64,000 nucleotides of DNA from Candidatus Woesearchaeota archaeon (GCA_964385425.1 CAYLOQ010000001.1:1411-65410), one strand, 5' to 3'; numbered from the stretch's first letter, positions 2,937 through 54,760 are shown. Numbers and translations are program-made. The notes: a model not told the origin generated them from the letters alone.

Positions 2937-3182
2937 TCAATCAAACCAACCCAACTTCTCGTCCTTTGGCAATTTCTTTATTGCATACTCGCATTTACAC
3001 GCACCTGATTTGTCCCTGCACTGCTTAGCCCGAAGTAATTTCTTAAAACCTTTTTGAAAAACATATTTACTTCCCTTCCCCTCAGCATGCGTATTCATCC
3101 GCGCGTCAACATCTATCGTCACCCCTGTATAAAACGAACCATCCCCACATTCAAGAATATAAACATACCATTGTTTTTTCAT
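2937..3182 (-). CDS. GIY-YIG nuclease domain protein
   Basis: YVYIL...GSFYTGVT...R...H at the N-terminus fits the GIY-YIG pattern. It is a small 81-aa protein with a Cys-rich C-terminus. Confidence 0.65.
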   Translation of the reverse strand: MKKQWYVYILECGDGSFYTGVTIDVDARMNTHAEGKGSKYVFQKGFKKLLRAKQCRDKSGACKCEYAIKKLPKDEKLGWFD

Positions 3183-38981: not shown

Positions 38982-41900
38982 CTAAATATCCAACTGGGCC
39001 TCCATTGCATTTTCCTGAATAAATTGTTTCCTTGCCTGGACATCATCACCCATGAGCATGCTGAAAGTCATGTCTGCTTCTACAGCGTCTTCGATAAATA
39101 TCTTCTTGATTTTCCTAGTCTTTGGATTCATGGTAGTATCCCAGAGTTGTACAGAACTCATCTCCCCCAAACCCTTGAACCTCGTCACATTGGTCGCTCC
39201 CAGCCTCTCGACAGTTCTTTTTAATTCTTCGTCTGTATATACGTAATGGTCTTTCTTCTTTCTTATTCTATAAAGTGGCGGCATAGCAGCATAAATATTT
39301 CCATTCTCAATTAATTTAGGCATGAACCTGAAGAAAAACGTCAAAAGCAGAGTCTTAATATGTTCTCCATCTACATCTGCATCTGTCATGATAATTATTT
39401 TATTGTATCTCAGTTTTTCTATGTTAAAACCTTCCCCAACACCTGTTCCAATAGCTGTTATCATATTTGTAATCTCTTCACTGGAAAGAGCCCTCACGGG
39501 GTTTGATTTCTCAACATTCAGAATTTTTCCTTTCAAAGGAAGTATAGCCTGAATTTCTTTGTTTCTCGCCATTTTTGCACTATTATGAACAAATATCCCG
39601 GATTCAAGAGCAAAATTATTGGTGTCTTTAACCTCTAAATCATAAACATCCATTCTTTCATTTACTCTTTCAATTTTCGTTATCTTATGATTGTAATTTT
39701 TAACTGCTTCTAACATAGTTTCATTATTCTTATCAAAAAATCTTGAACAAAAAGTTTCCATACTCAAGATAGAGCGGTCTTTATTTCCTATTCTTATTTT
39801 ATCAAAATTATCCAAATTTCCATAATTTTCAAGGACTTTTTTTGCTAATTCAATTGTTTTTCTATAATAGGTTTGATTATAGGTCTCCATTCTCCTCTTT
39901 CTAAACTCGGGGGTCCATTGCTCTTTGGTTTTTTGTCTTCTCCAAATTAACAAAATTTCATCTTTCCATTGTTCTTTAGCTAAACTTGAAAGATATTCCT
40001 TCGCATCAGGATTTTCTTCAAAGAATTTTTTAACTTTTTTAGAAGCTTTTTCTCTATTTTCAGAATCAGACCAATATTCTTTCTGTTGCTGATAAAGCCT
40101 TTTCTTTAAATTTTCTCTGTATTCTTCATTGGAATTATAAAATTCCATATATTTTTTCATAATATTCTGTTTATATTCTGGATTCTTCCATAATTGTTTT
40201 GACCTTTCTGAAAGCATCTTTCTTACATCTGGTTGTTTTGCCCACATCCTTACTTTTTCTCTATATTCTGGTTTTCTATGAGCTTGCCTAGCTTTTTCTT
40301 TAACATCTTCCCTATGCAAGGTCTTTTCTAAATGTTCTGTATGAAGAATTAAATGATCTTCTTTAGACATCCGTATAATATTCGTCGGGTTATTATTAAG
40401 TTTATTAAAATCTATATGGTGCCTAGAATCTCCTTGAATTTTAGAATAAACATTATTTTCCAAATTGTATTCATCTGAGATCATATGTGTAAAAATCCAT
40501 TTACCATCTGTATTTAAAACCATTTCATATCCATCAATTGTGATTCTCCCCCCCATCTTAGAAATTTTTTTATATAATGGCATTAGTGAATCTTCCTTTG
40601 TTAAATTTTTGGCTTCTTTATACTCCTTATTTCTTAACATAAATTTGTGGTCTGGAGTACAAACAATTTCTTCATTATTATCTAAAACAACTTTGATAAC
40701 AGAAGTGTTTCTTTTTGTTATCCGAGGATTTTCTATTCTGGCTATTCCAATACTTGCATCTTTTCTTATTGTATAACAAAAATTTTCTTTCCCGTTCTTA
40801 TATTCTTCAACTAGTTGTTTAAAAGAAAGGTTTCTCCCGTCAGCCAATGCGATTTTTGTATCTCCAGAAAAACACCCACCGGCGCTTTCTCCTTCAACTA
40901 AATAAAGTTCTGTATTTTCTGATTTTTTACTGGAACAATCCGCAAGCTTTCCGGGCAATCCTCCAAGAGAGAAAGCGTTCTTTCTCCTTACAAGATCTTT
41001 GGCTTTCTTAGCAGCCAGTCTGGCCTTGGAAGAATCTATAGCCTTAGATGTTATTTTTCTGGCGACAGAAGGATTTTCCTCAAAAAACTCTGAAAGTGCG
41101 GTTGTAACCATAGAATCTACAAAACCCTTGATTTCAGAGTTTCCTAATTTTGTCTTTGTCTGTCCTTCAAATTGGGGCTCCCCCATTTTCAGACTAAGAA
41201 CAACAGTTAACCCTTCCCTAACATCTTCTCCAGACAGAGAGCCATTTTTAAGAAGGCCTTTCTTTCTTGCATAATCATTGATAACTCTCGTGAGTGCTGT
41301 TTTAAAACCAGAAACATGAGTCCCCCCTTCAACAGTATTAATGGTATTTACAAAACCAAAAATATTTTCCTGATAACCTGTGTTGTACTGAACAGAGGCC
41401 TCTACAATCGTATGATTTACTTCTTTCTTGAAGTATATTGGTTTGTGCAGAACTTCCTTAGATTTATTCAGCCATTTTACAAACTCGATAAGACCCCCTG
41501 CAGAAAAGAATTCTTCTTTCTTTTTCTGGTTCTCATCCACCAGAATTATCCTCAAACCAGCGTTCAAAAACACAATTTCCCTAAACCTTGTCTCTAAGAC
41601 CTTATAATCAAAATCTAATTTAGAAAAAATTTCAGGGTCTGGCCAAAAAGTTATTTTTGTTCCTGTTGATCCGTTCTTTCCAACAACCTTTAGCCTGGTT
41701 TTAGCGTCTCCTCTCGAATATTCTTGTTGATAGATCTTTCTGTCTCTGCTAATATCAATAATTAATTTCTTAGAAAGGGCATTGACTACAGAAATTCCAA
41801 CTCCGTGCAACCCACCAGAGATAGCATAAGATTTTTTATCGAACTTTCCACCTGCGTGTAGCTTAGTCAAGGCGACCTGGACAGCAGGAATCTTAAAAAC

Positions 41901-42149
41901 AGGGTGTGGGTCCACAGGAATTCCCCTCCCGTCATCTTCAATTGTCGCAGAACCGTCCTTATTTAATGTTACTTTTATTTCCTTACAATATCCTGCAAGT
42001 GCTTCATCCACAGAGTTGTCCACAACTTCATATACCAGATGATGTAGCCCATCTTTTCCAGTTCCGCCTATGTACATGGCAGGTCTTTTCCTGACCCCTT
42101 CAAGCCCTTCAAGCACCTTTATTTCAGATGCTCCATATTTTTCTTCCAT
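38982..42149 (-). CDS. gyrB: DNA gyrase subunit B, interrupted by an in-frame intein
   Basis: GHKL ATPase N-domain and a TOPRIM domain. The conserved LYLVEGESAGG | SAK...AILPLKGKILNVEK block is split by a 431-aa insertion. The exteins total about 624 aa. Confidence 0.92.
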   Translation of the reverse strand: MEEKYGASEIKVLEGLEGVRKRPAMYIGGTGKDGLHHLVYEVVDNSVDEALAGYCKEIKVTLNKDGSATIEDDGRGIPVDPHPVFKIPAVQVALTKLHAGGKFDKKSYAISGGLHGVGISVVNALSKKLIIDISRDRKIYQQEYSRGDAKTRLKVVGKNGSTGTKITFWPDPEIFSKLDFDYKVLETRFREIVFLNAGLRIILVDENQKKKEEFFSAGGLIEFVKWLNKSKEVLHKPIYFKKEVNHTIVEASVQYNTGYQENIFGFVNTINTVEGGTHVSGFKTALTRVINDYARKKGLLKNGSLSGEDVREGLTVVLSLKMGEPQFEGQTKTKLGNSEIKGFVDSMVTTALSEFFEENPSVARKITSKAIDSSKARLAAKKAKDLVRRKNAFSLGGLPGKLADCSSKKSENTELYLVEGESAGGCFSGDTKIALADGRNLSFKQLVEEYKNGKENFCYTIRKDASIGIARIENPRITKRNTSVIKVVLDNNEEIVCTPDHKFMLRNKEYKEAKNLTKEDSLMPLYKKISKMGGRITIDGYEMVLNTDGKWIFTHMISDEYNLENNVYSKIQGDSRHHIDFNKLNNNPTNIIRMSKEDHLILHTEHLEKTLHREDVKEKARQAHRKPEYREKVRMWAKQPDVRKMLSERSKQLWKNPEYKQNIMKKYMEFYNSNEEYRENLKKRLYQQQKEYWSDSENREKASKKVKKFFEENPDAKEYLSSLAKEQWKDEILLIWRRQKTKEQWTPEFRKRRMETYNQTYYRKTIELAKKVLENYGNLDNFDKIRIGNKDRSILSMETFCSRFFDKNNETMLEAVKNYNHKITKIERVNERMDVYDLEVKDTNNFALESGIFVHNSAKMARNKEIQAILPLKGKILNVEKSNPVRALSSEEITNMITAIGTGVGEGFNIEKLRYNKIIIMTDADVDGEHIKTLLLTFFFRFMPKLIENGNIYAAMPPLYRIRKKKDHYVYTDEELKRTVERLGATNVTRFKGLGEMSSVQLWDTTMNPKTRKIKKIFIEDAVEADMTFSMLMGDDVQARKQFIQENAMEAQLDI
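39582..40874 (-). mobile_element. GyrB intein (Hint domain plus HNH endonuclease domain)
   Basis: Starts with Cys immediately after SAGG (CFSGDTKIALADG, block A) and ends ...GIFVHN followed by Ser+1. The internal HNH motif is GDSRHHIDFNKLNNNPTNIIRMSKEDHLILH, and the K/E/R-rich NPEY-containing repeats are NUMOD-like. Confidence 0.85.
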
Positions 42150-42366: not shown

Positions 42367-42627
42367 ATGAAAAAAACAGTAATTTTACTGTCAATTTTAA
42401 TGCTAACCTTAGCAAGTATTATATTTTTAACGGCAGAGCAGGACCCACCTTACACACATTCATGGACAAAAGCCATTTGTGATGAAAATAACCACTGTCA
42501 GGACCACATAATTTTCTGTAAAGGAGAAAAATTAGTCAGCACAACTCCAATAACAGGGGCTACAGTTCAACTCTCCAAGAATTGGGAAGATCCAAGAGAT
42601 GAAGAAATAAGAGAGAAATTTTGTTAA
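42367..42627 (+). CDS. Small secreted Cys-containing protein
   Basis: Signal peptide MKKTVILLSILMLTLASIIFL. 86 aa. Confidence 0.4.
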   Translation: MKKTVILLSILMLTLASIIFLTAEQDPPYTHSWTKAICDENNHCQDHIIFCKGEKLVSTTPITGATVQLSKNWEDPRDEEIREKFC

Positions 42628-45600
42628 GAAATATCAAATCCATAACCTTCTTTTTTATCAGACTCTTCATCAGGCTTTTCTTCTGATTCCCCTGGCTTTT
42701 CTATCTTTTCCCCTTCTTCACCAATTAATTCTTCCATAGCCTCTTCATCAGATTCTAATTCTGGGAGTTGAGGCTTATATGTTTCTTGTTTTTCTTTAGT
42801 TTCTCCAGAATCTGTTTTTCTAAAGGCTTTTCTATATAATCTTTTTATTGTTGCAGGAGCCTTCATGTATTGGTCCACCTCTTCTTTTATTCTTTTCTTC
42901 TCTTCTGTATTGGATTCTTCTAAATAATCTATCAAATCCCTGATTAAAACTTTAGCTTCCTTTTCTATCTCATTAATATTGTAATAAAGGTTGGATTTGG
43001 TTGTCTTAAACTCTATATGTGCATTTATTATGTCTCTCAGAGTTTTCAGGTGTCTCTTAGTAAACTTCCCTGGTTCAACGAATGCTTTTTCAAAATCACG
43101 TAAAAGAAATTCTTGAGATTTTTTTCCGAAAATCTTTTTTAATAAATAAAAGGTGTTCCTATGTATTCTTTCTATAGCTGCTCCTGCCCTCCTAGAAATT
43201 ATTCTCTCTTCTTTTGCTAATTCTTTTTCACCCTTTGATATAAATAACCTTAATGGTCTAGTAAGCTTTCTAATAAGGGATGTGAAAGAAAATCCTTTTT
43301 CAACTCCCTTCCTAATTTTCTTAATCGGCTTCTTAATTTCTTTAACAGGTTTCCTCCCAACCTCCCAAAATGCTTTGATTTTTTGATCAGCACCCAATCC
43401 TAAGATATCCTGTCTCTCTGATACTCTTCTGATGGCCTTTAGTAAAAATCTATCTAACTCTTTTGCCTGTCTTTTAAATCTTTTATAGAATCTATTAATG
43501 GAAATGTAGATAGCATTTAAGATTCTCTTCACCTTAAATCCTATCCTCAACCTTCCAAGCTCTATTCTTAATTTTTGTTTCGGTTTTTTAACCGGTTTAA
43601 ACTTTTTCTTCTTTTCAATATGTGTTCTCTCCCCCCTTAATTTAAATTTAAATAGACCAGATAGGTCAAATTTAACAGGGGTTATTTCTAGATGTTTGAG
43701 TCCCCTAAAGAGAATGATTGTTCTCTTTCTTATTGCTCTTGAAAATATTTTAATTGCCCTAAACACCTTTCCACTGAATCTAGAAAGTGCTATAACCACA
43801 TTCTCAATAAATCCAGAGATAGAACTAATAATCCTGATAAATATCTTCTTAAATTGTCCCCTTTGTCTAGGCCTTTCAACTAATGACTTTATTTTTGGTT
43901 TTACCTTAATCACTCTCCTTGCTTTAAGTCTTTTTCTCTCTCTCTTCAACCGTTCAGTTTCTCTTCTTCTTGCTCTCCTCAATCTATTAATCGCTCCTCT
44001 TTCTGCCATCCAGGATTTGAATCTCTGGAAAAAATTGGTTTTATTTATTATAAATACTATGATGAAAAATACAAACAAAACAAAAAGTGTTTTTAGGAAA
44101 TAATTAAAAGCGGTGCTCTTGACTATCGATGATAAAAAGGAAAATATATTCAAGAAATAAGTCAGAACTCCAAGTACAACAAATAAAGAAAATGCTAAAA
44201 CAGAAATCTTATGTTTTTTAATCCACCTTGTCTCTCGTACGAGTCCTACCTTTATCTTCTTCCTTTCCAAATAGAATATGAGGAAGGTTATGATGACAGC
44301 TAAGATAATCAAAGTAATAATCGCATAGACCCTAATACCTTCAACGTCTTTCGATGTTATTATCGCAATACCCCCCTCAACCCTTACCTCAATAGTTCTT
44401 TCTGATCTTGCAGAATAACTCTCATGATCGACTTCAACAACAAAAGTATAAATTCCAGATTCTATACTAGATGGTAAGAAGATCCTTGTTGTTTCTGTTT
44501 TTTCTTCAAAACTACCGAGATAAATAGTATCCAAACCAGAGGTTACTATTTCTCCATCTTTCTCAATCCAAAAATTAACCACAACGTCTGCATTAATTTC
44601 AGCTACACCTTTTATAAAATAGACAAACTCAAAGAATTCTCCAAGTCTTACAGGAGATTCAAAATCAATTATCTTAACATCAAATAGTTTTATACATTGA
44701 TAATTAAAACAAGCTTCATCAGCACTACAGGAACTATCATTGAGACACTCGACACTGCTTGAGCTTCCACCTCCACCACCCGCATCATCAACATCATCAC
44801 CCGCATCATCGTCTACAGGTGTTTCTTCTGCAGAATAAACAGTGAACCCAGTTACATTAAAGCTTAAAGTGCCTCCAGAATAACTGTTCTGCGTACAAAT
44901 TGATGAGGAACAAAGAGATCCATCCCTCAAAATCCTCGGGGTTGTAAATGTTAAATTATATAGGGAGAGTGTTGCACTTTTGTTGAAGTTGGGAAGGGCT
45001 GTAGAATTTAATTCAATTCTGTTTGATGAAATATTTACATGAATATCTAAATCAACCTTGTTGTTTGTTAGGTTAAGGTCGTCTGTTACATTAATAGCTT
45101 CATTAAAATTTATTTTCCCTGCATTTATCCTTTCTAAAATAATGCCACTCAAATTCTGTAAATCTTCATGAGATGTTTGATTAAAGGCTGTTGATAGTCC
45201 CTTTAAAAGACCACCAAATTCGTCAAAAATTACAGAGAATTTAGTTATATTAACTGTAAAGGTGACATTTTTTACAGTTTCTCCGTTACTATTATTTGCA
45301 TATAATTTAAGAGTATGCTGCCCTTCTGTAGTATTAAAAGTTGTATTTCCAGTTATCGTTGTATTCGGTGGTATATTATCAATATTATAAAACACAAAAT
45401 CCTCTAAACTAGCAACATACTCTAATAAAAGAGACTCGTTTGTAATATAAGTTTCATTTTCTGGCTTAATAATTGTTAAATTTGGGGCAACGAGAGAAAC
45501 ATTTCTTGTTTCTGTTTGGTTGGTGTTTCCGGCAATATCAATTACATAAGCTTTGTAATCATATGTTCCAGCATTTAAGTTAGTGAAATTATTATATAAA

Positions 45601-48600
45601 CTGTATAAACCGGCATTATATGAGGCATTAATTTCTGCTTGTGATAAGGCTCTATTGTGAATACGGACTTCGTCTATTGAACCATTGAAATATCTTGAAA
45701 AACTAGGTAAGTTTCCAATTAATAAATCACTTGTCGATGTAATTGTAGTTGGAATATCTCCAGTAAAAGCTAATGGTTCATTAACCCCATTTACATATAT
45801 TTTTAATTGGTCTGCATCTGCAACTTGGGTACCATCATATACTGAAATTATATGATACCAGTTTCCTACAGCAATAACATTATTATCTGTTGTTCCAAAA
45901 TCACTACCAGCACCTATCTGGGTTAATATTTTTCCAGTAACACCAGTTATTTCTACAAAAAATCCATTACTGCCATCCCACCAACCTAAAAAGTCTTTTT
46001 GATGTATTAAGGCATCTGGTTTGACCCAAAACTCCGTAGTTATTTGGTCTTCGTTTGAAAGAGTTAAACCTGTAATATTTATAGAATCATCAACCCCATC
46101 AAACTCTATTCCTTTACCATATTTTCCATCAATAGTTGTGTTTGAAGAAAAACTAATCATAGTTCCATCATTCCCATAACTTGAATTATCATATACTGTT
46201 CCATTGCTTAAAACAGTTTCAAAATTCCACCATCCCACTAAACTATAATTCCAGTCAATAAATGCGGAATGGTCATTAGTATCAGAAGTTGAAACATTAA
46301 CATAAACCGAATTTTCTTTTATAGATAATCCATTTTCAAGTGTCGGGGTTACAAAGTCTATCAATGGGTTAATTGAATCAACAAAGAAAGTTACAGAAGA
46401 TGAATTCTCATTTCCACTCGTGTCATTTGCATAAATCCTCCATGTCTGACTTCCCTGGCCAGAATCAAGACCTGTAACATTAACACCACAAGAAATTGTG
46501 GTATTTGTGGCTCCGCCGTCTATCGAATACCAACAAACATCTAGGGCTTGATTATCAACAGCAGTATAATTCAGCTGTGTTTGGACAGAGGTGTAAGAAA
46601 TGTTTTGTGGCTCAACTAAAGAAACGTTTGGGGGAGTTAAATCCACCTCGAGAACATTAACCCACCATATTTCTATTGCAGATGTATAGTTTGTATTTCC
46701 TCCATAAATGGTTGTTATGTTAAATAATCCAAAGTCTGTGAAGTTGGTTAAGTTACTCAAGGGAGAAGTTCCTTGATTGATTAAGGTTCCGTTATTATAC
46801 AATTCAATAGTCCCTGTTCCTGTATCTAAAGTTGAATTCAAATAAATTTCTTCATTTTGATTAATTGTTATATTTGCCCTTGAATTATTTAAGTATGTAA
46901 ATACAACTCCTGTTGCTTGGTTGACAGTTAAAATCTCTGACACAGAAGCAGAAGTGTAATTTATATTTCCTGTGGTGTTAAAAGTATAATTATATGTTCC
47001 CACTCCAAGAGTTGCTGTTTCTGAATTGCCAACAGAAATGCTGTCTCTATATAGGGTGCAGGTTAACTGGGAAGGGCAACCTGTTCCATTCGCTGTTGTC
47101 TCTGTCAGATATGTTACAGTATTGCTCGGAGTTATTGACAGGCTTATTGAAGGTGTTCCCTGATCTATCGTATAACTTCCATTTTCAGTACTATTTATAT
47201 TTCCACTAGTGTCATTTGCATACCATCTGTAATTGTAAGTTCCAACTGAAAGACCTGTTAGTGTAAGATTATAAATATTTCCTGTTAAATTAACAGCAGT
47301 GTAATTTGTTCCATTAAAATCTATAATCACTGTATCAACAACCCTATTATCTGTTATTGTTGCATTGAATTCATAAATTGTTCCCTCTGAATAAACAGCC
47401 GGGTCGCTCGGGTTTTCTGTGAGGGAAGAAACACCTGGATTTGTTTCATCAGGGGCTTCTGTCACATTTACATACCAGGTTTCAAAACTGCCTGTAAAGT
47501 TCTGACTTTCCTCGTAAATTCCAGTTATATTAAAAATCCCTACAGAACTAAATTGTGTAAAGTTACTCAAAGGACTTGCGCCTTGATTTATCAGAGTTCC
47601 AGCATTGTATAACTTCAAAGTTGCTCCAGAATCTCCTGTTGCAGTTGTGGCATTAAGATAAATAAAAGAATCCTGAACAATTGTAACATTCCCGTCTGTT
47701 ACATTTAAGGTCAGGTTTACCTCACTACTTATTTTTGTAATAGTTACAAATCTTGTTATCGAGGCAGAGCTATGGTTCTGATCTCCGCTTGAAACAGCTG
47801 TATAATTATAATACTCGACCCCTAAAGTTACAAACACATTATTATCTCCTGTGACATCGGTGGCATTTCTGTACAAGGTAACCACTCCAAATTGTGTTGC
47901 TGCGCTTGCATTTGTTTGAGTATTATATGGTGCTATTTGATTTGCTGCAGAGCCATTGATTAATAGAGTTATGTCTCCTGTTGCATTACTTATGGTATAT
48001 GTCTGAATAGAAGTTGAATTAACATTATTCACAGTGTCATTTGCATACCACCTGTAATTGTAAGTTCCTGCTGCTAAATCTGAAATAGTAAAATTATAGA
48101 CATTCCCAAACAAATTAGTAGGAGTATAATTTGTTCCATCAAATTCAATTAAAACAACATCTAGGTTGTCGTCAGTTATTGTTGCATTAAATTCATAAGT
48201 TGTTCCTTGAACATACATCGTAGGGTCACTCGGGCTTTCCGTTAAACTATCCAGTGAGGGATTTGTCGTATCTAAAGTTACACTTACAGTTGCTAAATCT
48301 GCTTCATTGCTGAATGTATCATTAGCTGTGGCGTTGTAGAAATAAAGTCCGTCACTCAATCCAGTGAAGTTGATAAAATTCGGAGAAGTTGAAGTTAGAG
48401 AAGAATTTATCTGTTCATCTGAAGAATTGTAGAGCCTGATTAAAATTTTATCTAACTTAGGGTCTGATGCTGTTACATTTATTTCTATAAAGTTCTGTGA
48501 ATAATTTCCTGTTGCAGTTATTGGAGAAACATAATTCATTGCCGGTGGCCCTGTGTCTGTTGTGACTGTTCTAGTTACAGTTGAATTTTCATTGCCAAGA

Positions 48601-51600
48601 GTATCATTGACAGTAGAATTAAAGAAATATACTTCATCTGGAAGTTCTGTGAAATTAGAAAAGAAGGGTGAAGTTGATGATGTATTTTGTGTAACTAAAC
48701 CTGTAGAATTATACAAGAAGATTGTAATTATATCTACACTATCTGTTGCAGTTACATTAACTTGTATATAATCTCTGGTTAATGAAGAATCGTTTGCTTC
48801 TGTAGGAGCTACAAAGTCTATGTTTGGGGGTATTGTATCAATATTTATTTCCCTAGTTTCAGTCTGATTTGTGTTTCCTGCTATATCATTGGCTGTTGAA
48901 AAATAAGTATAAGTTCCAGCATCTAAACCATCTGTTGAATTCTTTGATTGATTCGTGTATAAAATCCATTTATCTGTGTCATATTTTCTTAAATTTGAGA
49001 AGTATTGTTGTTGGATTTCTGTTGCAGAAAGTGAACGATTCCAGATACGGACTTCATCTATTGAACCATTGAGTTTCTGTGAGCCATCCCCAATATCTCC
49101 AATAAAAACATTATTATCACTTTGTACAATAGCTGCAGCAGACCCACTGTTTTCCTCAATCCCATCAATATAAATTCTCAATGTTGAACCATTGTGTGTC
49201 CCAACAACATGATACCATCTCACTGTTGTTGCTAAGGTAGAAGATAATAAGACATTAGTCCCCTCCCATACTGCAAAGGCATTGTTTGCACCGCTTCTTT
49301 TTAATAATGCAAAACCACCACCCCCACCACTTTTTCCAACTATTGTATCTTGTGCTAATTCTTCCAGAGAATCAAAGTTTACCCAAGCTTCCAGGGTAAA
49401 TTCAGTAAGGTCTATATCACTAACATTTATAAAATCATTAACACCATCAAAATCAAAAGCCCCGTTGTATCTTCCACTTGAATTAAAAGTTGCACCGCTT
49501 ACAGTTCCGTCATTTCCATATTTACTTAAATCAACAACAAAAGTATCATTTTCACCCAAGGCACTAATATTATCAAAATTCATCATTAAAACCAGAGAAT
49601 CGTTATAAATTGTATAATTGGTTGAATTCCAGTTGAATTTGACTTCGTTTAAGTTCAATTCAGTAATTGTTACATTAATTTCTACACTTGTATTGGCAGT
49701 TGTTGTGGCATTTGGCGGTGTTGGAGATACGAATTGTATTTGAGGGTTGATCGTATCTATCGTGATGGTCCTCGTTTCTGTCTGATTTTCATTTCCAACT
49801 GTGTCATTTGCTGTTGAATTCAAATAATAATTTTCATCTGGCAAACTTGTGAAATTAACAAAAAACGGTGTGGTCGAAGATATGTTTTGTTGTACCAAGC
49901 CTGTTGAGTTATACAAAAAAATAGTTATTATGTCTAGGTTCGTGTCTGAAGCAGTTACATTGGCCTGAATATAATCTCTGGTAAGTTGGGAGTTGTTAGA
50001 TTCTGTTGGGGATACAAAATCTATATTTGGATTCGTTGTATCTACTGTAAAAAATATGGTGCTAAAGTTATCATTTCCAACAGTGTCATTCGCATAAAAA
50101 GTAATATTATGTAAACCATCTGTAAGTATTGGATGGTCACCACTTAAATTAAAGAAATTAGTAGTTGAATCGTTAGTCAGGGTCATGTTTGCTAAACCAT
50201 CAACAGATGCCAGTGCGTTGGTTAAACTTTCATCTACAGTTATGTTATAATCAATACTACCAGTTGCAAAAGTCGAATTTGTTGGAGAAATTATTGTTAT
50301 TACTGGGGGAGTTGTGTCTGCTGTTATAAGAGTAATTTTTCTCGTCTCTGTTTTATTTGTATTATTTACAGTGTCATAAATAGTTACGTTATAGAAATAA
50401 TCAACACCACTATTATTCAAACTTGTCCAGTTTATTGTTGTAATTAATGTCGTATAGGTCGTTTCATTTACTACTCCTGATCCATTGTGTAAAGCATAAG
50501 TAATATTTTTGAAATTAACTTCTGTTACAGATACATTCACAAAAACATAATCTTGATTGACAGAGGTTCCATTAGCTTCTGTTGGAGCCACAAATTCTAT
50601 CTGAGGGGGGGTTGCGTCAACACCAATTGTTCTTTCTTCAGTTTCATTTATATTTCCTACAGCATCGATAACATGGGCTTTAAAAGTATAGTCTCCATCA
50701 GCCAGGTTTGTGAAGTTGTTGGAGAGCCCGTAAGTTCCTGCCTGGTATGAGGCGTTAACCTCTTCTGGTGATAAAGTACGATTAAAAATCATGACTTCAT
50801 CTATAAAACCGCCCGCCCAATCTAAAACCTCTGGAGAACCCCCCACAGTTATATTTATTTCGGGAGCATAAAGGGTTCCAAACCCATAAGATGAATTACT
50901 ACTTTCCAAAACACCGTTTACATAAAGGCGTGTCTCTGTTGTGTTATAGGTTCCAACCAAATGATACCAGTTGTTGTTACTAAGTCCACTACTAAAAAGA
51001 CAACTTCCAATAGCAGGATTACCGGAGTATAAGCACCACCAGACAGGCCAAGGATTTTCTCCATCAACAAATAAGCTATATGACCTGTACCCAGTAGTGT
51101 GATTCTGATACCTATTTACTAAATCATGATTAGATCCCCCAACAAGACCTGTTGGCTTGAACCATATAGAAACAGTAAAAGATACATTTCCCATCCCAAC
51201 TGTTGAATCGTTCCCGAAATTAACATAATTATCTAAATCTGCCCTATTAAACTCTAATGCCTTACCTCTTTTACCCTCTGTTATATTATTAGTCCCGAGA
51301 TTTCCATTAAACGTTCCAAATTTATCATAAGTAGAATTATCAAATACTCCTGTCGTATTAAAGAAATCAAAACTCGCCCATAATTCTAAACTCTTGTTCC
51401 AATCTATAAATGCTGAATGTTCTGAAGCGTCGCTTGTTGAAACATTCACATAAACATAATCTTCGGTTTGGTTTGTGTTGTTGTCTGGGGTTGGAGCCAC
51501 AAAATTTATGTTTGGGTTTGTAGTATCAATTGTAAATGTTCTGTTTGTGTCTGTGAAATCCTCATTTCCTAAGGTATCATTACCCCATGCTGCCCAGACA

Positions 51601-53513
51601 TAGTATCCATCAGGAATTCCTGTAACAGTTATATTCCAATAGCTGTCATTTATAGCAGTCATGTTTGTTTGGTTTGCAACCCAACTTCCGCTCCAGTTCC
51701 CATACAACCTCAAGGCATCAACATTAAGATTATCTGAAACCTTTAAATCAAAAGTAATAATGCCAGAGCTTGAATTAAAATTATCAACAGGATTTGTTCC
51801 AAATGAGGCATTAGGAGCTATATTATTAACAGTATATGTCTGCAAGTCTGTAACATTCCATTGCCCTGCAGAATCATTTGCCCATTGTTTCCAGCCAATT
51901 GCTTTGCCTTCACACGCATTAGGAACCAACCATGTTAAATTTGCCCATGAAGAACCTCCTGAAATAGTTGTTTCAGAAACATTTGCTGCAGTGTTACAGC
52001 TTGCCTCTGTTCCATTAACCTCAAGTGTGGCATAGCTTAGTGCTGTGTCATCTGTCCAGTTTATGTTGTGTCTAACAGCCCTGTTTGGAAGTGGTGTCGA
52101 GTCATTTACAGAGGGGAATTGCCATGCTGGAGGATTGTCTGAGGTTGTAGTGTAAGCAAAAATATCAGTAACATTAAACTGATTTGTAGAATCATTAGCA
52201 TAAACTCTCCATCTTATTGTTGAGCCTTCTGTAGAATTAACTACCTTAGTTACATTGCTCCAGTTGTTTGTTCCAGTCATTGAAACAAAGCTATCATTAA
52301 CAAAAGTCCCTGCACCGTTATCAAAACTAAAAATATATCCTGCAAGATTGGTTTCATCTGTCCATCTTACTCTATGCTCTACAGCTTCTCCTGCTGCAGT
52401 GGAATTTGTTGAATTATCAAACCATTTTGGGGGATTGTCTACCCCACTATAATTCACATCTAGATACACATAATCAATAGTTATGTCTTGAGGACCGCCT
52501 GCATCATTATTATTCATTCTTAACCACACACCGTTAGCCAATTGTGTTGGTGTAATTGAATTACAAACAAGAGAATTTCTTGTTTCAGAAGCATCCTCTG
52601 GTGCAGGATCAACACTACAAATTGTTGTTCCATCTCTTGTATCTGTAACAAAAACAGCCCAATCACCAGACAAAATTCCAGAAGAATCATAAAATAACGT
52701 GGCTGAATTTACTGTACTTACATCTCCTTGTGTTTGGAAAGGAGCATCAATATGTTTTCCTTTTGCTATAACAAAACTTGTTCCTCCATCAGCAGATATA
52801 GCATCAAAACAAGGCGTACTTGCAACATCATCAGCATCACATGATGTAACAGTTAAATTTACAAATGGATCAAAAATATAATCAAACTCCAAGCTTCCAT
52901 CCAGAACTTTTAAATCAAAAGTGTCTTGGATTCCTTGTAGGCTTGTAAGAAAAACTTTGTTATATTCGTTACTATTAATATTAGAAAACTCTGCAATTAA
53001 GTTATTCTCATTTTCTTCATAAACTTCAATTCTTGGATTCCCATCAACAACACGAGGATAAATTGTTATATCGTTTTTGGAAGTTAATTGTTGCTCAAAT
53101 ATAACTCTTGCATATTCTTCATCTGAAACAGGTTCAGACCAGATATCATCAAGTTTTTTTGTTTCTTCATAAATATCACTTATGAATTCTTTGTTTGAAT
53201 CCAAGTGCTCTGCCCCAGATAATTCAATTACAAATCTTATAGATACAGTATTTTCACTCTCAACCGTTTCAATATCTTTTATATCTTCAGAAACTATTAA
53301 ACCAAACGGATTTATTATTTTAGTAGGACCAAAAGTTGATATAAAAATCAAAAGGAAAAGAAGAGATAATCCGATAATTAAGGAAGCTATTGCCCAATCT
53401 TTATGATGTTTTCCCCTATATTCAGAAATTACACTACCATCTTGTTTTCTGCTATGATAGACATAAGGACCGTAAAGTTTCCCACCCCTTTTAATATACC
53501 TTTTATAAGCCAT
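42624..53513 (-). CDS. Giant (3629 aa) surface protein with LamG/ConA-like and Ig-like repeat modules, C-terminal TM anchors and a long basic cytoplasmic tail
   Basis: N-terminal signal-anchor (WAIASLIIGLSLLFLLIFISTF). At least three LamG-like signatures (IDEVMIFNRTLSPEEV, IDEVRIWNRSLSATEI, IDEVRIHNRALSQAEI). Six or more repeats begin DTTNPNIDFV(A/S)PT. A Cys-rich stalk precedes TM helices near residues 3045-3110. The last roughly 550 aa are K/R-rich, ending in an acidic stretch. Confidence 0.8.
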   Translation of the reverse strand: MAYKRYIKRGGKLYGPYVYHSRKQDGSVISEYRGKHHKDWAIASLIIGLSLLFLLIFISTFGPTKIINPFGLIVSEDIKDIETVESENTVSIRFVIELSGAEHLDSNKEFISDIYEETKKLDDIWSEPVSDEEYARVIFEQQLTSKNDITIYPRVVDGNPRIEVYEENENNLIAEFSNINSNEYNKVFLTSLQGIQDTFDLKVLDGSLEFDYIFDPFVNLTVTSCDADDVASTPCFDAISADGGTSFVIAKGKHIDAPFQTQGDVSTVNSATLFYDSSGILSGDWAVFVTDTRDGTTICSVDPAPEDASETRNSLVCNSITPTQLANGVWLRMNNNDAGGPQDITIDYVYLDVNYSGVDNPPKWFDNSTNSTAAGEAVEHRVRWTDETNLAGYIFSFDNGAGTFVNDSFVSMTGTNNWSNVTKVVNSTEGSTIRWRVYANDSTNQFNVTDIFAYTTTSDNPPAWQFPSVNDSTPLPNRAVRHNINWTDDTALSYATLEVNGTEASCNTAANVSETTISGGSSWANLTWLVPNACEGKAIGWKQWANDSAGQWNVTDLQTYTVNNIAPNASFGTNPVDNFNSSSGIITFDLKVSDNLNVDALRLYGNWSGSWVANQTNMTAINDSYWNITVTGIPDGYYVWAAWGNDTLGNEDFTDTNRTFTIDTTNPNINFVAPTPDNNTNQTEDYVYVNVSTSDASEHSAFIDWNKSLELWASFDFFNTTGVFDNSTYDKFGTFNGNLGTNNITEGKRGKALEFNRADLDNYVNFGNDSTVGMGNVSFTVSIWFKPTGLVGGSNHDLVNRYQNHTTGYRSYSLFVDGENPWPVWWCLYSGNPAIGSCLFSSGLSNNNWYHLVGTYNTTETRLYVNGVLESSNSSYGFGTLYAPEINITVGGSPEVLDWAGGFIDEVMIFNRTLSPEEVNASYQAGTYGLSNNFTNLADGDYTFKAHVIDAVGNINETEERTIGVDATPPQIEFVAPTEANGTSVNQDYVFVNVSVTEVNFKNITYALHNGSGVVNETTYTTLITTINWTSLNNSGVDYFYNVTIYDTVNNTNKTETRKITLITADTTPPVITIISPTNSTFATGSIDYNITVDESLTNALASVDGLANMTLTNDSTTNFFNLSGDHPILTDGLHNITFYANDTVGNDNFSTIFFTVDTTNPNIDFVSPTESNNSQLTRDYIQANVTASDTNLDIITIFLYNSTGLVQQNISSTTPFFVNFTSLPDENYYLNSTANDTVGNENQTETRTITIDTINPQIQFVSPTPPNATTTANTSVEINVTITELNLNEVKFNWNSTNYTIYNDSLVLMMNFDNISALGENDTFVVDLSKYGNDGTVSGATFNSSGRYNGAFDFDGVNDFINVSDIDLTEFTLEAWVNFDSLEELAQDTIVGKSGGGGGFALLKRSGANNAFAVWEGTNVLLSSTLATTVRWYHVVGTHNGSTLRIYIDGIEENSGSAAAIVQSDNNVFIGDIGDGSQKLNGSIDEVRIWNRSLSATEIQQQYFSNLRKYDTDKWILYTNQSKNSTDGLDAGTYTYFSTANDIAGNTNQTETREINIDTIPPNIDFVAPTEANDSSLTRDYIQVNVTATDSVDIITIFLYNSTGLVTQNTSSTSPFFSNFTELPDEVYFFNSTVNDTLGNENSTVTRTVTTDTGPPAMNYVSPITATGNYSQNFIEINVTASDPKLDKILIRLYNSSDEQINSSLTSTSPNFINFTGLSDGLYFYNATANDTFSNEADLATVSVTLDTTNPSLDSLTESPSDPTMYVQGTTYEFNATITDDNLDVVLIEFDGTNYTPTNLFGNVYNFTISDLAAGTYNYRWYANDTVNNVNSTSIQTYTISNATGDITLLINGSAANQIAPYNTQTNASAATQFGVVTLYRNATDVTGDNNVFVTLGVEYYNYTAVSSGDQNHSSASITRFVTITKISSEVNLTLNVTDGNVTIVQDSFIYLNATTATGDSGATLKLYNAGTLINQGASPLSNFTQFSSVGIFNITGIYEESQNFTGSFETWYVNVTEAPDETNPGVSSLTENPSDPAVYSEGTIYEFNATITDNRVVDTVIIDFNGTNYTAVNLTGNIYNLTLTGLSVGTYNYRWYANDTSGNINSTENGSYTIDQGTPSISLSITPSNTVTYLTETTANGTGCPSQLTCTLYRDSISVGNSETATLGVGTYNYTFNTTGNINYTSASVSEILTVNQATGVVFTYLNNSRANITINQNEEIYLNSTLDTGTGTIELYNNGTLINQGTSPLSNLTNFTDFGLFNITTIYGGNTNYTSAIEIWWVNVLEVDLTPPNVSLVEPQNISYTSVQTQLNYTAVDNQALDVCWYSIDGGATNTTISCGVNVTGLDSGQGSQTWRIYANDTSGNENSSSVTFFVDSINPLIDFVTPTLENGLSIKENSVYVNVSTSDTNDHSAFIDWNYSLVGWWNFETVLSNGTVYDNSSYGNDGTMISFSSNTTIDGKYGKGIEFDGVDDSINITGLTLSNEDQITTEFWVKPDALIHQKDFLGWWDGSNGFFVEITGVTGKILTQIGAGSDFGTTDNNVIAVGNWYHIISVYDGTQVADADQLKIYVNGVNEPLAFTGDIPTTITSTSDLLIGNLPSFSRYFNGSIDEVRIHNRALSQAEINASYNAGLYSLYNNFTNLNAGTYDYKAYVIDIAGNTNQTETRNVSLVAPNLTIIKPENETYITNESLLLEYVASLEDFVFYNIDNIPPNTTITGNTTFNTTEGQHTLKLYANNSNGETVKNVTFTVNITKFSVIFDEFGGLLKGLSTAFNQTSHEDLQNLSGIILERINAGKINFNEAINVTDDLNLTNNKVDLDIHVNISSNRIELNSTALPNFNKSATLSLYNLTFTTPRILRDGSLCSSSICTQNSYSGGTLSFNVTGFTVYSAEETPVDDDAGDDVDDAGGGGGSSSSVECLNDSSCSADEACFNYQCIKLFDVKIIDFESPVRLGEFFEFVYFIKGVAEINADVVVNFWIEKDGEIVTSGLDTIYLGSFEEKTETTRIFLPSSIESGIYTFVVEVDHESYSARSERTIEVRVEGGIAIITSKDVEGIRVYAIITLIILAVIITFLIFYLERKKIKVGLVRETRWIKKHKISVLAFSLFVVLGVLTYFLNIFSFLSSIVKSTAFNYFLKTLFVLFVFFIIVFIINKTNFFQRFKSWMAERGAINRLRRARRRETERLKRERKRLKARRVIKVKPKIKSLVERPRQRGQFKKIFIRIISSISGFIENVVIALSRFSGKVFRAIKIFSRAIRKRTIILFRGLKHLEITPVKFDLSGLFKFKLRGERTHIEKKKKFKPVKKPKQKLRIELGRLRIGFKVKRILNAIYISINRFYKRFKRQAKELDRFLLKAIRRVSERQDILGLGADQKIKAFWEVGRKPVKEIKKPIKKIRKGVEKGFSFTSLIRKLTRPLRLFISKGEKELAKEERIISRRAGAAIERIHRNTFYLLKKIFGKKSQEFLLRDFEKAFVEPGKFTKRHLKTLRDIINAHIEFKTTKSNLYYNINEIEKEAKVLIRDLIDYLEESNTEEKKRIKEEVDQYMKAPATIKRLYRKAFRKTDSGETKEKQETYKPQLPELESDEEAMEELIGEEGEKIEKPGESEEKPDEESDKKEGYGFDIS

Positions 53514-53690: not shown

Positions 53691-53891
53691 TCAATTTTGA
53701 GACTCTTTCTTCTCTTCAGCCCCAGTTTTTATTTTCTTTTTCTTAGAAATCCACCTAACCTTCCTTCTCTTCATCTTCATATTTTTTCTACATTTGCCGG
53801 AACAGAGGTAATTGACAGTCCCATCATTCATTACAAGGGTCAAACCACGAGGAAACTCATATTCTTTCCCGCAATATACACATTTAGGCAT
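53691..53891 (-). CDS. rpl24e: Ribosomal protein L24e
   Basis: MPKCVYCGKEYEFPRGLTLVMNDGTVNYLCSGKCRKN matches the eL24 zinc ribbon. Confidence 0.85.
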   Translation of the reverse strand: MPKCVYCGKEYEFPRGLTLVMNDGTVNYLCSGKCRKNMKMKRRKVRWISKKKKIKTGAEEKKESQN

Positions 53892-54123
53892 GTTTTTTTC
53901 CCACGTATTTTAAATATAAGTTATAAGTTACCTGGTTAGGACTACTAGCATCTATAGCTACTTCCCTTTCAATCTCATAATCTCTATTCCCTGCAAAACA
54001 ACCATGAACTAAGATCATCAAATCTTCTGGTAAATCGAAAACCTTAATAATATCTCCTTTTCCAATATCTCCTTCTTCAACAAGACTTTCTATTTTACTT
54101 TTTATTTGATCAACCCTATTCAT
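53884..54123 (-). CDS. Hypothetical small protein in the ribosomal cluster
   Basis: 79-aa ORF translationally coupled between rps28e and rpl24e. I recognise no motif. Confidence 0.4.
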   Translation of the reverse strand: MNRVDQIKSKIESLVEEGDIGKGDIIKVFDLPEDLMILVHGCFAGNRDYEIEREVAIDASSPNQVTYNLYLKYVGKKHA

Positions 54124-54168
54124 CTCAAGTATACGCCCCTTCGTGTTTTTTATTTATAAAAAATGCTT

Positions 54169-54459
54169 TCATGTGTATGCTCCCTTTGTTACCTTAGATT
54201 TAATTCTTCTTGCCTCTATTTCCGTTTCCCTTAACATTAAATAATCTCCCACCCTAATAGGACCCTTAACGTTTCTTCTCATTACACGCCCTTCGTCTCT
54301 TCCTGCTGTAATCAAGCAGCGGACCTGTGTAATCTCTCCCCTAAAACCAGTTCTTCCTATTAATTCCTGAACTAATGCGGGAACAACCTTCCCTAGAATT
54401 CTATCACTTCCCTTACTCCCTGTCTGTTTCCCTTCCTTTTGTTGCTGTTGTTTTGCCAT
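54169..54459 (-). CDS. rps28e: Ribosomal protein S28e
   Basis: [16 protein letters not shown]...[15 protein letters not shown] matches eS28. Confidence 0.85.
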
Positions 54460-54460
54460 T

Positions 54461-54760
54461 TTATTTCAACCCAGAAATATCTTTTTCAGCTTCTCCAGCC
54501 TCTATCACTGCAACAGAAGATGCCGAAACAGGAATCCCAACAGCAATTCCTAATTTTTGTTTGCTGTCAACTTCCTTACAAAGAATTCCTTTCTCCTTAC
54601 ATAGAACAGGAATATGCTGAACAATTTCTTTTGGCTCTACATCGGTGGCATAAACAACGAGTTTTGCTGTTCCCCTCTCTATAGCCTTAGTAACTTCATT
54701 TGTTCCCTTCTCTACCTTCCCCGTCTTTCTCGCTTTTTCAATTATAGTATATGCATCCAT
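54461..54760 (-). CDS. rpl7ae: Ribosomal protein L7Ae (K-turn binding)
   Basis: [26 protein letters not shown]...LCKEKGI matches the L7Ae/L30e family. Confidence 0.9.

What the first reader, a model, noticed from the sequence alone, without database searches (positions are those of the whole stretch)
42624..53513. 3629-aa giant surface protein with LamG and Ig-like repeat arrays and an exceptionally long basic cytoplasmic tail
This single 10.9-kb ORF occupies 17% of the window. Topology: N-terminal signal-anchor, then about 2900 aa of extracellular repeat modules. These include at least three LamG/ConA-like signatures, six or more repeats starting DTTNPNIDFV(A/S)PT, duplicated YNYRWYANDT blocks, and dozens of N-x-S/T sequons. 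A Cys-rich stalk and TM helices follow. The tail is a roughly 550-aa K/R-rich cytoplasmic region ending in an acidic patch. Giant glycosylated adhesin-like proteins are a hallmark of episymbiotic small-genome archaea. The very long polybasic intracellular tail is unusual and could bind nucleic acid or cytoskeletal partners. The 918-aa protein at 5250-7967 repeats the same C-terminal architecture on a smaller scale.
Basis: partly seen in the sequence, partly recalled or inferred. Interest (0 to 1): 0.65.

Follow-up and report, generated by a model that had tools for sequence, protein, structure and literature searches.

The report
Giant archaeal adhesin with self-cleaving joint
This is a real 3629-residue sugar-coated surface protein of a tiny symbiotic archaeon; it is an ordinary member of a large family of such giants, except that next to its membrane anchor sits a clear relative of the self-cleaving domain of the eukaryotic nuclear-pore protein Nup98, which probably acts as a breakaway joint.

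Summary
The 10.9-kb ORF (42624-53513, minus strand) is real, intact and already in public databases on a 505-kb contig. Its repeats are old (30-58% protein identity, 60-78% DNA identity), so repeat collapse is unlikely.

- N-terminal anchor helix.
- About 3000 extracellular residues with 176 N-x-S/T sequons (71±7 expected).
- Three LamG domains.
- About 14 clear Ig-like units.
- A 4-Cys knot, three TM helices and a basic tail with an acidic end.

Corrections:
- The tail is 473 aa, not about 550.
- It is a family trait, not an oddity. Of 164 proteins sharing the same anchor cassette, tails reach 776 aa with 25-42% K/R.
- The 918-aa neighbour shares topology only, not sequence.

New findings:
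- The family-defining N-terminal domain has a CBM32-like jelly-roll fold.
- The LamG domains are nested inside Ig-like units.

Best reading: a host-binding adhesin with a MAIN/GAIN-like self-cleaved joint (F2890|T2891), held by a cationic amphipathic tail. Cleavage, glycosylation and adhesion are all inferred, not shown.

The parts
42624..53513 (-). Complete ORF, 3629 aa plus stop codon
   Evidence: identical protein P0001 in NCBI/ENA on a 505-kb contig
53394..53513 (-). aa 1-40: conserved basic cytoplasmic N-terminal motif (MAYKRYIKRGGKLYGPYVYHSRK...)
   Evidence: Found at the N-terminus of 45 of the 120 listed giant homologs. Net charge about +7 by direct count. No Pfam family.
53337..53393 (-). 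aa 41-59: TM1, N-terminal signal anchor
   Evidence: Kyte-Doolittle 19-residue mean 2.72. No AxA-type signal-peptidase site seen by eye, so retention is an inference.
52866..53264 (-). aa 84-216: family-defining jelly-roll domain with a galactose-binding-like (CBM32 / F5-8 type C) fold
45309..52436 (-). aa 360-2735: array of Ig-like beta-sandwich units of about 95 aa. 14 are clear units; further beta modules lie at aa 1842-2021, 2117-2290 and 2675-2735.
   Evidence: Self-HMM iteration; weak Big_13 / Big_3_3 Pfam hits; internal identities 30-58%
50754..51233 (-). LamG domain 1 (aa 761-920), nested inside the Ig-like unit that starts at aa 663 and resumes at aa 898
   Evidence: PF13385 E=2.1e-24; split Ig-like HMM match
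49011..49442 (-). LamG domain 2 (aa 1358-1501), nested inside the Ig-like unit 1253 / 1482
   Evidence: PF13385 E=1.7e-28
45627..46100 (-). LamG domain 3 (aa 2472-2629), nested inside the Ig-like unit 2379 / 2608
   Evidence: PF13385 E=5.6e-25
44829..45311 (-). aa 2735-2895: homolog of the Nup98/Nup145N/Nup116 autoproteolytic domain (peptidase S59-like beta-sandwich)
44841..44846 (-). F2890-T2891: predicted scissile bond (FNVTGF|TVYSAEE), in the turn between the last two strands of the domain
   Evidence: HMMER aligns it on Nup98 'FKVSHF|SKYGLQD'. In the 70 scorable domain copies P1 is Phe (Trp in a subgroup, Leu once) and P1' is always Ser or Thr. The turn position comes from the DSSP of the model.
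44364..44771 (-). aa 2915-3050: Gly/Ser end of the acidic linker, a 4-Cys knot (C2923, C2929, C2935, C2940) and a conserved beta-rich pre-TM module
   Evidence: Alignment A3 has 69% mean column identity and 4 invariant Cys. 389 cluster representatives match aa 2900-3629 at E<=1e-3, mostly over this module and the first TM. Fold not identified.
44046..44330 (-). aa 3062-3156: three TM helices (3062-3080, 3103-3121, 3138-3156) with a basic cytoplasmic loop between the first two
   Evidence: In the family, 88 proteins have 1 TM and 58 have 3 TM after the module.
43194..44045 (-). aa 3157-3440: polybasic, helically amphipathic part of the cytoplasmic tail (net +67)
   Evidence: Whole-tail mean helical hydrophobic moment 0.416 against 0.265±0.020 in shuffles; charge count
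42915..43181 (-). aa 3445-3533: conserved helical tail module, specific to this family
   Evidence: Alignments A2 and A6. Found in 16 proteins, sometimes twice. No relatives elsewhere. PDB gives only designed helical bundles.
42627..42788 (-). aa 3576-3629: acidic C-terminal patch (net -15)

Best explanation
The ORF encodes an intact, heavily N-glycosylated giant cell-surface adhesin of a DPANN archaeon (Pacearchaeota/Woesearchaeota-like).

Proposed topology. A conserved basic 40-residue motif stays in the cytoplasm. TM1 anchors the N-terminus. About 3000 residues lie outside. Three TM helices and a 473-residue tail anchor the C-terminus.

Extracellular part, in order:
- a CBM32-like jelly-roll that defines the family;
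- about 20 Ig-like sandwiches, three of them carrying a nested LamG lectin-type domain;
- a homolog of the Nup98/Nup145N autoproteolytic domain;
- an acidic/Gly linker, a 4-Cys knot and a beta module.

Proposed mechanism.
1. The lectin-like modules bind glycans on the host cell envelope.
2. The Nup98-like domain cleaves its own chain between F2890 and T2891 by an N-O acyl shift. The two halves stay joined non-covalently through the shared beta-sheet.
3. This joint parts under load, as proposed for bacterial MAIN, animal GAIN and SEA domains.
4. The C-terminal stub is held by three TM helices and by cationic amphipathic helices lying on the inner membrane face. A conserved helical module and an acidic tip are available for a cytoplasmic partner.

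Shown here: the ORF, the domain identities, the homology to the Nup98 autoproteolytic domain, the conservation of the cleavage-site residues, and the family-wide anchor cassette and tail.

Inferred: glycosylation, host binding, actual self-cleavage, retention of TM1 and tail function.
For: ORF and family. The ORF is intact and colinear with homologs. Named relatives are giants of 2000-6000 aa, nearly all from Pacearchaeota, Woesearchaeota or Nanoarchaeota. The window carries archaeal-type genes (L7Ae, S28e, L24e).

Topology. Four TM helices with positive-inside charges.

Glycosylation. 176 sequons against 71±6.8 expected, confined to the predicted outside. Cysteines occur as nearby pairs only in the ectodomain.

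Nup98-like domain.
- Profile search gives E=1.5e-8 to human Nup98, and the alignment places F|T exactly on HF|S.
- In the 70 scorable copies P1 is Phe (Trp in a subgroup, Leu once), P1' is Ser or Thr in every copy, and Tyr (one Leu, one Ala) sits two residues after the Ser/Thr, matching the Tyr of Nup98's HF|SKY.
- The site lies in a turn between the last two strands of the model.
- Nup98 H862A/Q mutations barely affect cleavage, whereas the buried Phe and the Ser nucleophile are essential (PMC3210808). CARD8 and NLRP1 cleave at SF|S.

Architecture. The order signal - adhesion domains - autoproteolytic domain - surface anchor matches that shown experimentally for bacterial MAIN proteins, which cleave at HF|S (bioRxiv 10.64898/2026.05.12.724683). 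The Nup98-like domain sits 16-45 aa upstream of the anchor module in 36 of 76 informative family members.

Tail. It is conserved as a trait across 164 proteins and is strongly amphipathic in helical register.
Against: - No experimental or proteomic evidence for cleavage, glycosylation or host binding.
- The His of the canonical HF[ST] motif is Gly in this protein and is His in only about 7 of 70 copies.
- Pfam's own PF04096 model scores only 16.7 bits, below its 28.4-bit cut-off.
- Nup116 and Nup100 show that this fold can serve as a pure binding domain without cleavage (my own knowledge).
- One homolog has five copies of the domain spread along the chain, which is odd for a single breakaway joint.
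- 40 of 76 anchor-cassette proteins lack a detectable copy, so the pairing is not obligatory.
- If TM1 is retained, cleavage would not release the ectodomain.
- The tail's role is inferred from composition only.
Confidence: 0.6

Rival explanations
1. The Nup98-like domain is a non-catalytic structural or protein-binding beta-sandwich. It would act as a rigid spacer or docking module before the anchor, and the chain would stay in one piece.
For: The P2 His is missing in most copies. Pfam PF04096 is below threshold. There are five copies in P0053 and two in P0083, away from any anchor. Nup116 and Nup100 use the same fold only for binding (my own knowledge).
Against: Ser or Thr, and nothing else, occupies P1' in all 70 copies, with the two residues interchanging freely. 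Phe is kept at P1 and Tyr two residues after the Ser/Thr. The motif aligns exactly on Nup98's scissile bond. The His is dispensable in Nup98 and absent in the self-cleaving CARD8 and NLRP1 (PMC3210808).
Confidence: 0.3
2. The protein is a structural envelope component, that is an S-layer-like or glycocalyx scaffold that shapes or protects the cell's own surface. It would not be a host-binding adhesin.
For: Anchoring at both ends, extreme glycosylation potential, ectodomain net charge -241, and a housekeeping neighbourhood of ribosomal proteins and gyrase.
Against: The module content differs strongly between close relatives: the best homolog is 54% identical over 41% of the query. That is typical of fast-evolving interaction proteins. 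Lectin-type domains (LamG, CBM32-like) dominate. DPANN literature links such proteins to host contact (PMC5498576, PMC6792436), although only by inference.
Confidence: 0.2
3. The polybasic tail binds nucleic acid or ribosomes. This would tether the nucleoid or the translation machinery to the attachment site.
For: 27% K/R and net +67 over 284 residues. Tails of relatives reach 42% K/R.
Against: No known nucleic-acid-binding domain was found. The charge is arranged on amphipathic helices, with a hydrophobic moment about 7.5 SD above shuffles. That pattern fits lying on an anionic membrane or packing into helical bundles. Tail length varies from under 100 to 776 aa in the family, as expected for a loosely constrained anchor.
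Confidence: 0.15
4. The giant ORF is an assembly artefact produced by collapsed or chimeric repeats.
For: It comes from a metagenome assembly, and the protein is repetitive.
Against: DNA repeats are only 60-78% identical. No stop or frameshift occurs over 10.9 kb. The conserved N-terminal and C-terminal modules sit in the same order as in about 17 independent homologs from other samples.
Confidence: 0.02

Closest known systems
Giant LamG/Ig-like surface proteins of DPANN archaea (Pacearchaeota, Woesearchaeota, Nanoarchaeota; described in general terms in PMC5498576 and PMC6792436)
   Same: Size class (2000-6000 aa), LamG expansion, Ig-like arrays, membrane anchoring, presumed host interaction. 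97 of the 120 listed homologs share the N-terminal hallmark domain.
   Different: I found no published dissection of this family's N-motif, CBM32-like hallmark domain, Nup98-like domain, anchor cassette or tail module. The module order of the ectodomain differs even from the closest relative.
Nup98/Nup145N/Nup116 C-terminal autoproteolytic domain (peptidase family S59, Pfam PF04096)
   Different: The domain here is extracellular and sits in a prokaryotic surface protein. The P2 His is usually absent. Two Cys form a probable disulfide inside the domain (C2868, C2873). The score against the Pfam model is below its cut-off. Cleavage has not been shown.
MAIN domains: microbial GAIN-like autoproteolytic domains (Brogan & Rudner, bioRxiv 10.64898/2026.05.12.724683)
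   Same: The architecture signal - adhesion/lectin domains - autoproteolytic beta-sandwich - surface anchor. F|S-type cleavage motif in a beta-turn. Large proteins. Proposed force-triggered separation. The family is reported in bacteria and archaea.
Adhesion GPCRs (GAIN domain + 7TM) and SEA-domain mucins
   Same: A giant adhesive, glycosylated ectodomain. A self-cleaved juxtamembrane beta-sandwich that stays non-covalently joined. A multi-pass or single-pass anchor with a cytoplasmic tail.
CBM32 / F5-8 type C (galactose-binding-domain-like) modules
   Different: Only 6-15% identity. No Pfam hit and no PDB sequence hit. Sugar-binding residues were not assessed. The domain lies next to the N-terminal membrane anchor.

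Membership tests
Laminin_G_3 (PF13385, ConA-like lectin/glucanase superfamily) | Match to the Pfam model above its gathering score (27.6 bits) | tested here: met
   225.8 bits overall. Three separate domains score 86.8, 100.1 and 88.7 bits.
Peptidase S59 / Nup98 autoproteolytic domain | The beta-sandwich fold of the Nup98 C-terminal domain | tested here: met
Peptidase S59 / Nup98 autoproteolytic domain | Statistically significant sequence similarity to family members | tested here: met
   A profile of 32 archaeal copies against PDB sequences gives human Nup98 at E=1.5e-8. The top 21 hits are all nucleoporin autoproteolytic domains.
Peptidase S59 / Nup98 autoproteolytic domain | Score above Pfam PF04096's gathering threshold (28.4 bits) | tested here: not met
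   16.7 bits, E=0.008 for the window protein. The precomputed Pfam list for homolog P0053 does include PF04096.
Peptidase S59 / Nup98 autoproteolytic domain | HF[S/T] motif: buried Phe at P1, Ser/Thr nucleophile at P1', His at P2 | tested here: inconclusive
   Phe and Thr are present and aligned on Nup98's F|S. Ser or Thr occupies P1' in all 70 copies. P2 is Gly here and His in only about 7 of 70 copies. Nup98 H862A/Q mutants still cleave (PMC3210808).
Peptidase S59 / Nup98 autoproteolytic domain | Demonstrated self-cleavage | not testable with these tools
   Needs protein expression or proteomics.
MAIN domain (microbial GAIN-like; Brogan & Rudner 2026 preprint) | GAIN_B-like fold, or homology to YfkN-type MAIN domains | tested here: inconclusive
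MAIN domain (microbial GAIN-like; Brogan & Rudner 2026 preprint) | Architecture: secretion signal - adhesion/enzymatic domains - autoproteolytic domain - cell-surface anchor | tested here: met
   TM1, the CBM32-like domain, the Ig/LamG array, the Nup98-like domain, then the TM anchor about 170 aa further on.
DPANN giant-protein family defined here | N-terminal basic motif + TM + conserved jelly-roll domain of about 130 aa | tested here: met
   The motif is in 45 of 120 homologs and the domain in 97 of 120. Both are present in the window protein.
C-terminal anchor cassette (4-Cys knot + beta module + 1 or 3 TM + polybasic tail) | Pre-TM module followed by TM helix or helices and a K/R-rich tail | tested here: met
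   389 cluster representatives match. Of 164 proteins analysed, 88 have 1 TM and 58 have 3 TM, with tails of 25-42% K/R.
CBM32 / galactose-binding-domain-like | Jelly-roll fold | tested here: met
CBM32 / galactose-binding-domain-like | Carbohydrate-binding site residues or activity | not tested
   Identity is only 6-15%, and no site comparison was made.
HEPN domain (considered for the tail module) | Rx4-6H motif and a match to HEPN models or structures | tested here: not met
   No Pfam HEPN hit. PDB profile hits are only designed helical bundles. The R...H spacing seen in the window protein is not conserved in alignment A2.

The most novel reading that the evidence does not exclude
The module 'Nup98-type autoproteolytic domain + 3 TM + conserved cytoplasmic tail' may be an archaeal analogue of an adhesion receptor. 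Host contact would pull the self-cleaved joint apart. The exposed stub, or the unloaded three-helix bundle, would then pass the event to the cytoplasm through the conserved tail module. In parallel, the nucleoporin Nup98/Nup145N autoproteolytic domain, usually treated as a eukaryotic invention, would descend from such extracellular prokaryotic surface-protein domains.
Probability: 0.15. Interest if true: 0.85.

Novelty: new variant of a known kind. Interest (0 to 1): 0.6.

Why it matters
The giant protein as such is one more member of a known class. Three points are nevertheless worth follow-up.

1. Origin of the Nup98 autoproteolytic domain. Archaeal surface proteins carry a sequence-detectable homolog of this domain, with the scissile Phe|Ser/Thr conserved. 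This gives a concrete prokaryotic relative for a nuclear-pore component. It also adds an S59-type member to the recently recognised set of self-cleaving mechanical joints on microbial surfaces (MAIN, SEAL).

2. A possible signalling output. Here the joint is wired to a multi-pass anchor and a large conserved cytoplasmic tail. Bacterial MAIN proteins lack both. It can therefore be tested whether contact sensing in episymbiotic archaea has an intracellular output.

3. Better annotation. The family definition (N-motif, CBM32-like hallmark domain, anchor cassette) lets hundreds of unannotated DPANN giants be described.

Tried and rejected
- Tail module as HEPN. A resemblance noticed by eye (R...H) is not conserved. 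Pfam and PDB give nothing but designed helical bundles. Rejected.
- Tail module in other protein contexts. The profile search found only one extra fragment. No functional lead.
- Profile A1 against the 5.8-billion-protein index. It returned only 18 short fragments, which says little about distribution.
- 918-aa neighbour as a small paralog. BLASTP and four module HMMs were negative. The resemblance is in topology only.
- N-terminal motif shared with the Fic-family ORF at 3292-4287. HMM E=0.069, too weak to claim.
- Pre-TM module fold. The PDB profile search gave only marginal hits to RPA70 and Dumpy DPY. Left unassigned.
- NCBIfam has no model for the giant protein.
- The afdb50 fold library was unavailable. 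The link to bacterial MAIN domains therefore could not be tested structurally.
Taxonomy rests on the named homologs.
- Literature searches for prokaryotic S59/Nup98-like domains found nothing.

Full report
**The object**

The window holds one uninterrupted ORF on the minus strand, 42624..53513, coding for 3629 residues. With 33% G+C, the chance of 3629 stop-free codons is about 1e-122.

The identical protein is already in NCBI/ENA on a 505,019-bp metagenomic scaffold. It lies between an L7Ae-S28e-L24e ribosomal-protein cluster and an intein-containing gyrB.

Internal repeats are only 30-58% identical at protein level and 60-78% at DNA level. The conserved N- and C-terminal modules occur in the same order in about 17 independent homologs. 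A repeat-collapse artefact is therefore very unlikely.

Hydropathy gives one N-terminal helix (aa 41-59) and three C-terminal ones (3062-3080, 3103-3121, 3138-3156). The charge distribution fits N-terminus in, about 3000 residues out, tail in:
- net +7 before TM1;
- a +7 loop between TM2 and TM3;
- a nearly neutral loop between TM3 and TM4;
- a strongly basic tail.

The predicted outside carries 176 N-x-S/T sequons against 71±6.8 in shuffles. The cytoplasmic parts carry one. The ectodomain has a net charge of -241, and its 18 Cys come as nearby pairs.

Pfam confirms three Laminin_G_3 domains (aa 761-920, 1358-1501, 2472-2629; E 1e-24 to 1e-28) and weak Ig-like hits. A self-built HMM finds 14 Ig-like units of about 95 aa, most starting D-x-x-x-P. 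It also shows that each LamG is inserted inside an Ig-like unit (663/898, 1253/1482, 2379/2608). YNYRWYANDT occurs twice.

The tail after the last TM is 473 aa. It is 27% K/R, net +67 over aa 3157-3440 and net -15 over the last 54 residues.

**Family context**

A whole-protein search returned 296 relatives, the 120 listed being 2000-6200 aa long. Those with names come almost all from Pacearchaeota, Woesearchaeota, Nanoarchaeota or unclassified archaea.

Two N-terminal features unite them:
- a basic 40-residue motif (consensus MVYKKYIKRGGKLYGPYLYESKR...), present in 45 of 120;
- a beta domain of about 130 residues (aa 84-216 here), present in 97 of 120.

LamG-rich and large surface proteins are already regarded as typical of DPANN and are linked by inference to host contact (PMC5498576, PMC6792436).

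**The C-terminal anchor and the tail**

An exhaustive HMMER search with aa 2900-3629 found 389 cluster representatives. Most match a conserved 4-Cys knot plus beta module (aa 2915-3050; alignment A3) and the following TM.

Among 164 such proteins, 88 have one TM and 58 have three TM after the module. Tail lengths have a median of 113 aa, a 90th percentile of 471 aa and a maximum of 776 aa, with 25-42% K/R. The window's tail is therefore long, but it is an ordinary expression of a family trait.

Its mean helical hydrophobic moment is 0.416 against 0.265±0.020 for shuffles. The charge thus sits on amphipathic helices.

One stretch of about 90 residues (aa 3445-3533) is conserved in 16 proteins, sometimes in two copies. 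It has no relatives outside the family and no informative PDB match. My first idea that it was HEPN-like failed.

**The unexpected part**

Residues 2735-2895 are highly conserved among relatives (alignment A1). The evidence that they form a Nup98-type autoproteolytic domain built up in steps:
- They gave a weak Pfam hit to PF04096, 'Nup98-96 autopeptidase S59' (E=0.008).
- A first profile search against PDB put Nup116, Nup145 and Nup98 on top (E=0.006).
- With a broader profile of 32 copies, human Nup98's autoproteolytic domain scores E=1.5e-8. The top 21 hits are all nucleoporin autoproteolytic domains. The alignment sets the archaeal 'FnVtsF|tvYsaee' on Nup98's 'FKVSHF|SKYGLQD'.
- Foldseek independently lists 16 nucleoporin autoproteolytic domains first.

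In the model, F2890-T2891 lies in the turn between the last two strands.

Across the 70 scorable domain copies (77 copies were detected in 72 proteins), P1 is Phe (Trp in one subgroup, Leu once), P1' is always Ser or Thr, and Tyr (one Leu, one Ala) sits two residues after it. P2 is His in only about 7 copies.

The missing His is not disqualifying. Nup98 H862A/Q mutants still cleave, the buried Phe and the Ser nucleophile are the critical residues, and CARD8 and NLRP1 cleave at SF|S (PMC3210808). Chaetomium Nup145N uses Thr (PDB 5hb6 title).

The domain sits 16-45 aa before the anchor module in 36 of 76 informative proteins.

**Comparison with prior art**

A 2026 preprint (bioRxiv 10.64898/2026.05.12.724683) shows that bacterial 'MAIN' domains cleave themselves at HF|S and stay non-covalently joined. 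These GAIN-like domains always sit between adhesion or enzyme domains and a surface anchor, and archaeal members are mentioned. The architecture here is the same.

The differences are:
- This domain is a sequence-level relative of Nup98, a link the preprint does not discuss.
- It is followed by three TM helices and a large conserved cytoplasmic tail, not by a wall anchor.
- The N-terminus is probably also anchored.

I could not compare it directly with a MAIN sequence, because afdb50 was unavailable. I found no paper describing prokaryotic S59/Nup98-like domains.

**Mechanism and confidence**

Most likely (0.6) this is a host-binding glycoprotein adhesin whose Nup98-like domain self-cleaves at F2890|T2891. 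That would create a load-sensitive joint next to a stub that is strongly anchored by three TM helices and a cationic amphipathic tail.

What is shown: the ORF, the domain identities, the homology and the family conservation. What is inferred: glycosylation, binding, cleavage, retention of TM1 and tail function.

Main rivals:
- a non-catalytic Nup98-like spacer or docking module (0.3);
- a self-envelope scaffold rather than an adhesin (0.2);
- a tail that binds nucleic acid (0.15);
- an assembly artefact (0.02).

**Verdict**

The 'exceptional tail' is a family trait, and the 918-aa neighbour is not homologous.

The protein is a new member of a known class. It carries a new variant of a known device, namely an S59-type self-cleaving joint in an archaeal adhesin coupled to a multi-pass anchor and a conserved tail. 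Interest 0.6.

Noticed in passing
window 38982-42149 (-): The gyrB gene next to the giant ORF is 1055 aa and carries an intein (Pfam Intein_splicing is listed among its domains).
   Followed up: no
window 3292-4287 (-): A Fic-family ORF (NCBIfam Fic hits) has an N-terminal stretch 'YVEKRKEGNRIKYYLAHSFREDGKVNKIRKFLGK'. This resembles the giant protein's cytoplasmic N-motif. An HMM of 45 N-motifs scores it only E=0.069.
   Followed up: partly
window 5250-8006 (-): The 918-aa ORF has a signal peptide, a Cys-containing ectodomain of about 715 aa with 15 sequons, three TM helices and a basic tail of about 55 aa. It contains none of the giant protein's modules. The topology is the same, but there is no detectable homology.
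   Followed up: yes
window 53691-54760 (-), by conversion from L001 1754-2823: L7Ae, S28e and L24e ribosomal-protein genes lie directly upstream of the giant gene on the same strand. Co-transcription was not examined.
   Followed up: no
homologs P0053 (5817 aa) and P0083 (2333 aa): P0053 carries five copies of the Nup98-like domain along its length, and P0083 carries two. If all copies cleave, the protein would be a chain of non-covalently linked pieces. If not, the fold also has a non-catalytic use.
   Followed up: partly
window 45627-51533 (-), aa 663-965, 1253-1558 and 2379-2674: Each of the three LamG domains is inserted inside an Ig-like unit, whose HMM match is split around it. The composite module has been duplicated as a whole.
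   Followed up: partly
homologs P0005, P0006 (cytoplasmic tails): Some relatives' tails contain long runs of 'LPKFKLPK / LPRLKLPH'-type Pro-Lys repeats (sequences). These are unlike the window's tail.
   Followed up: no
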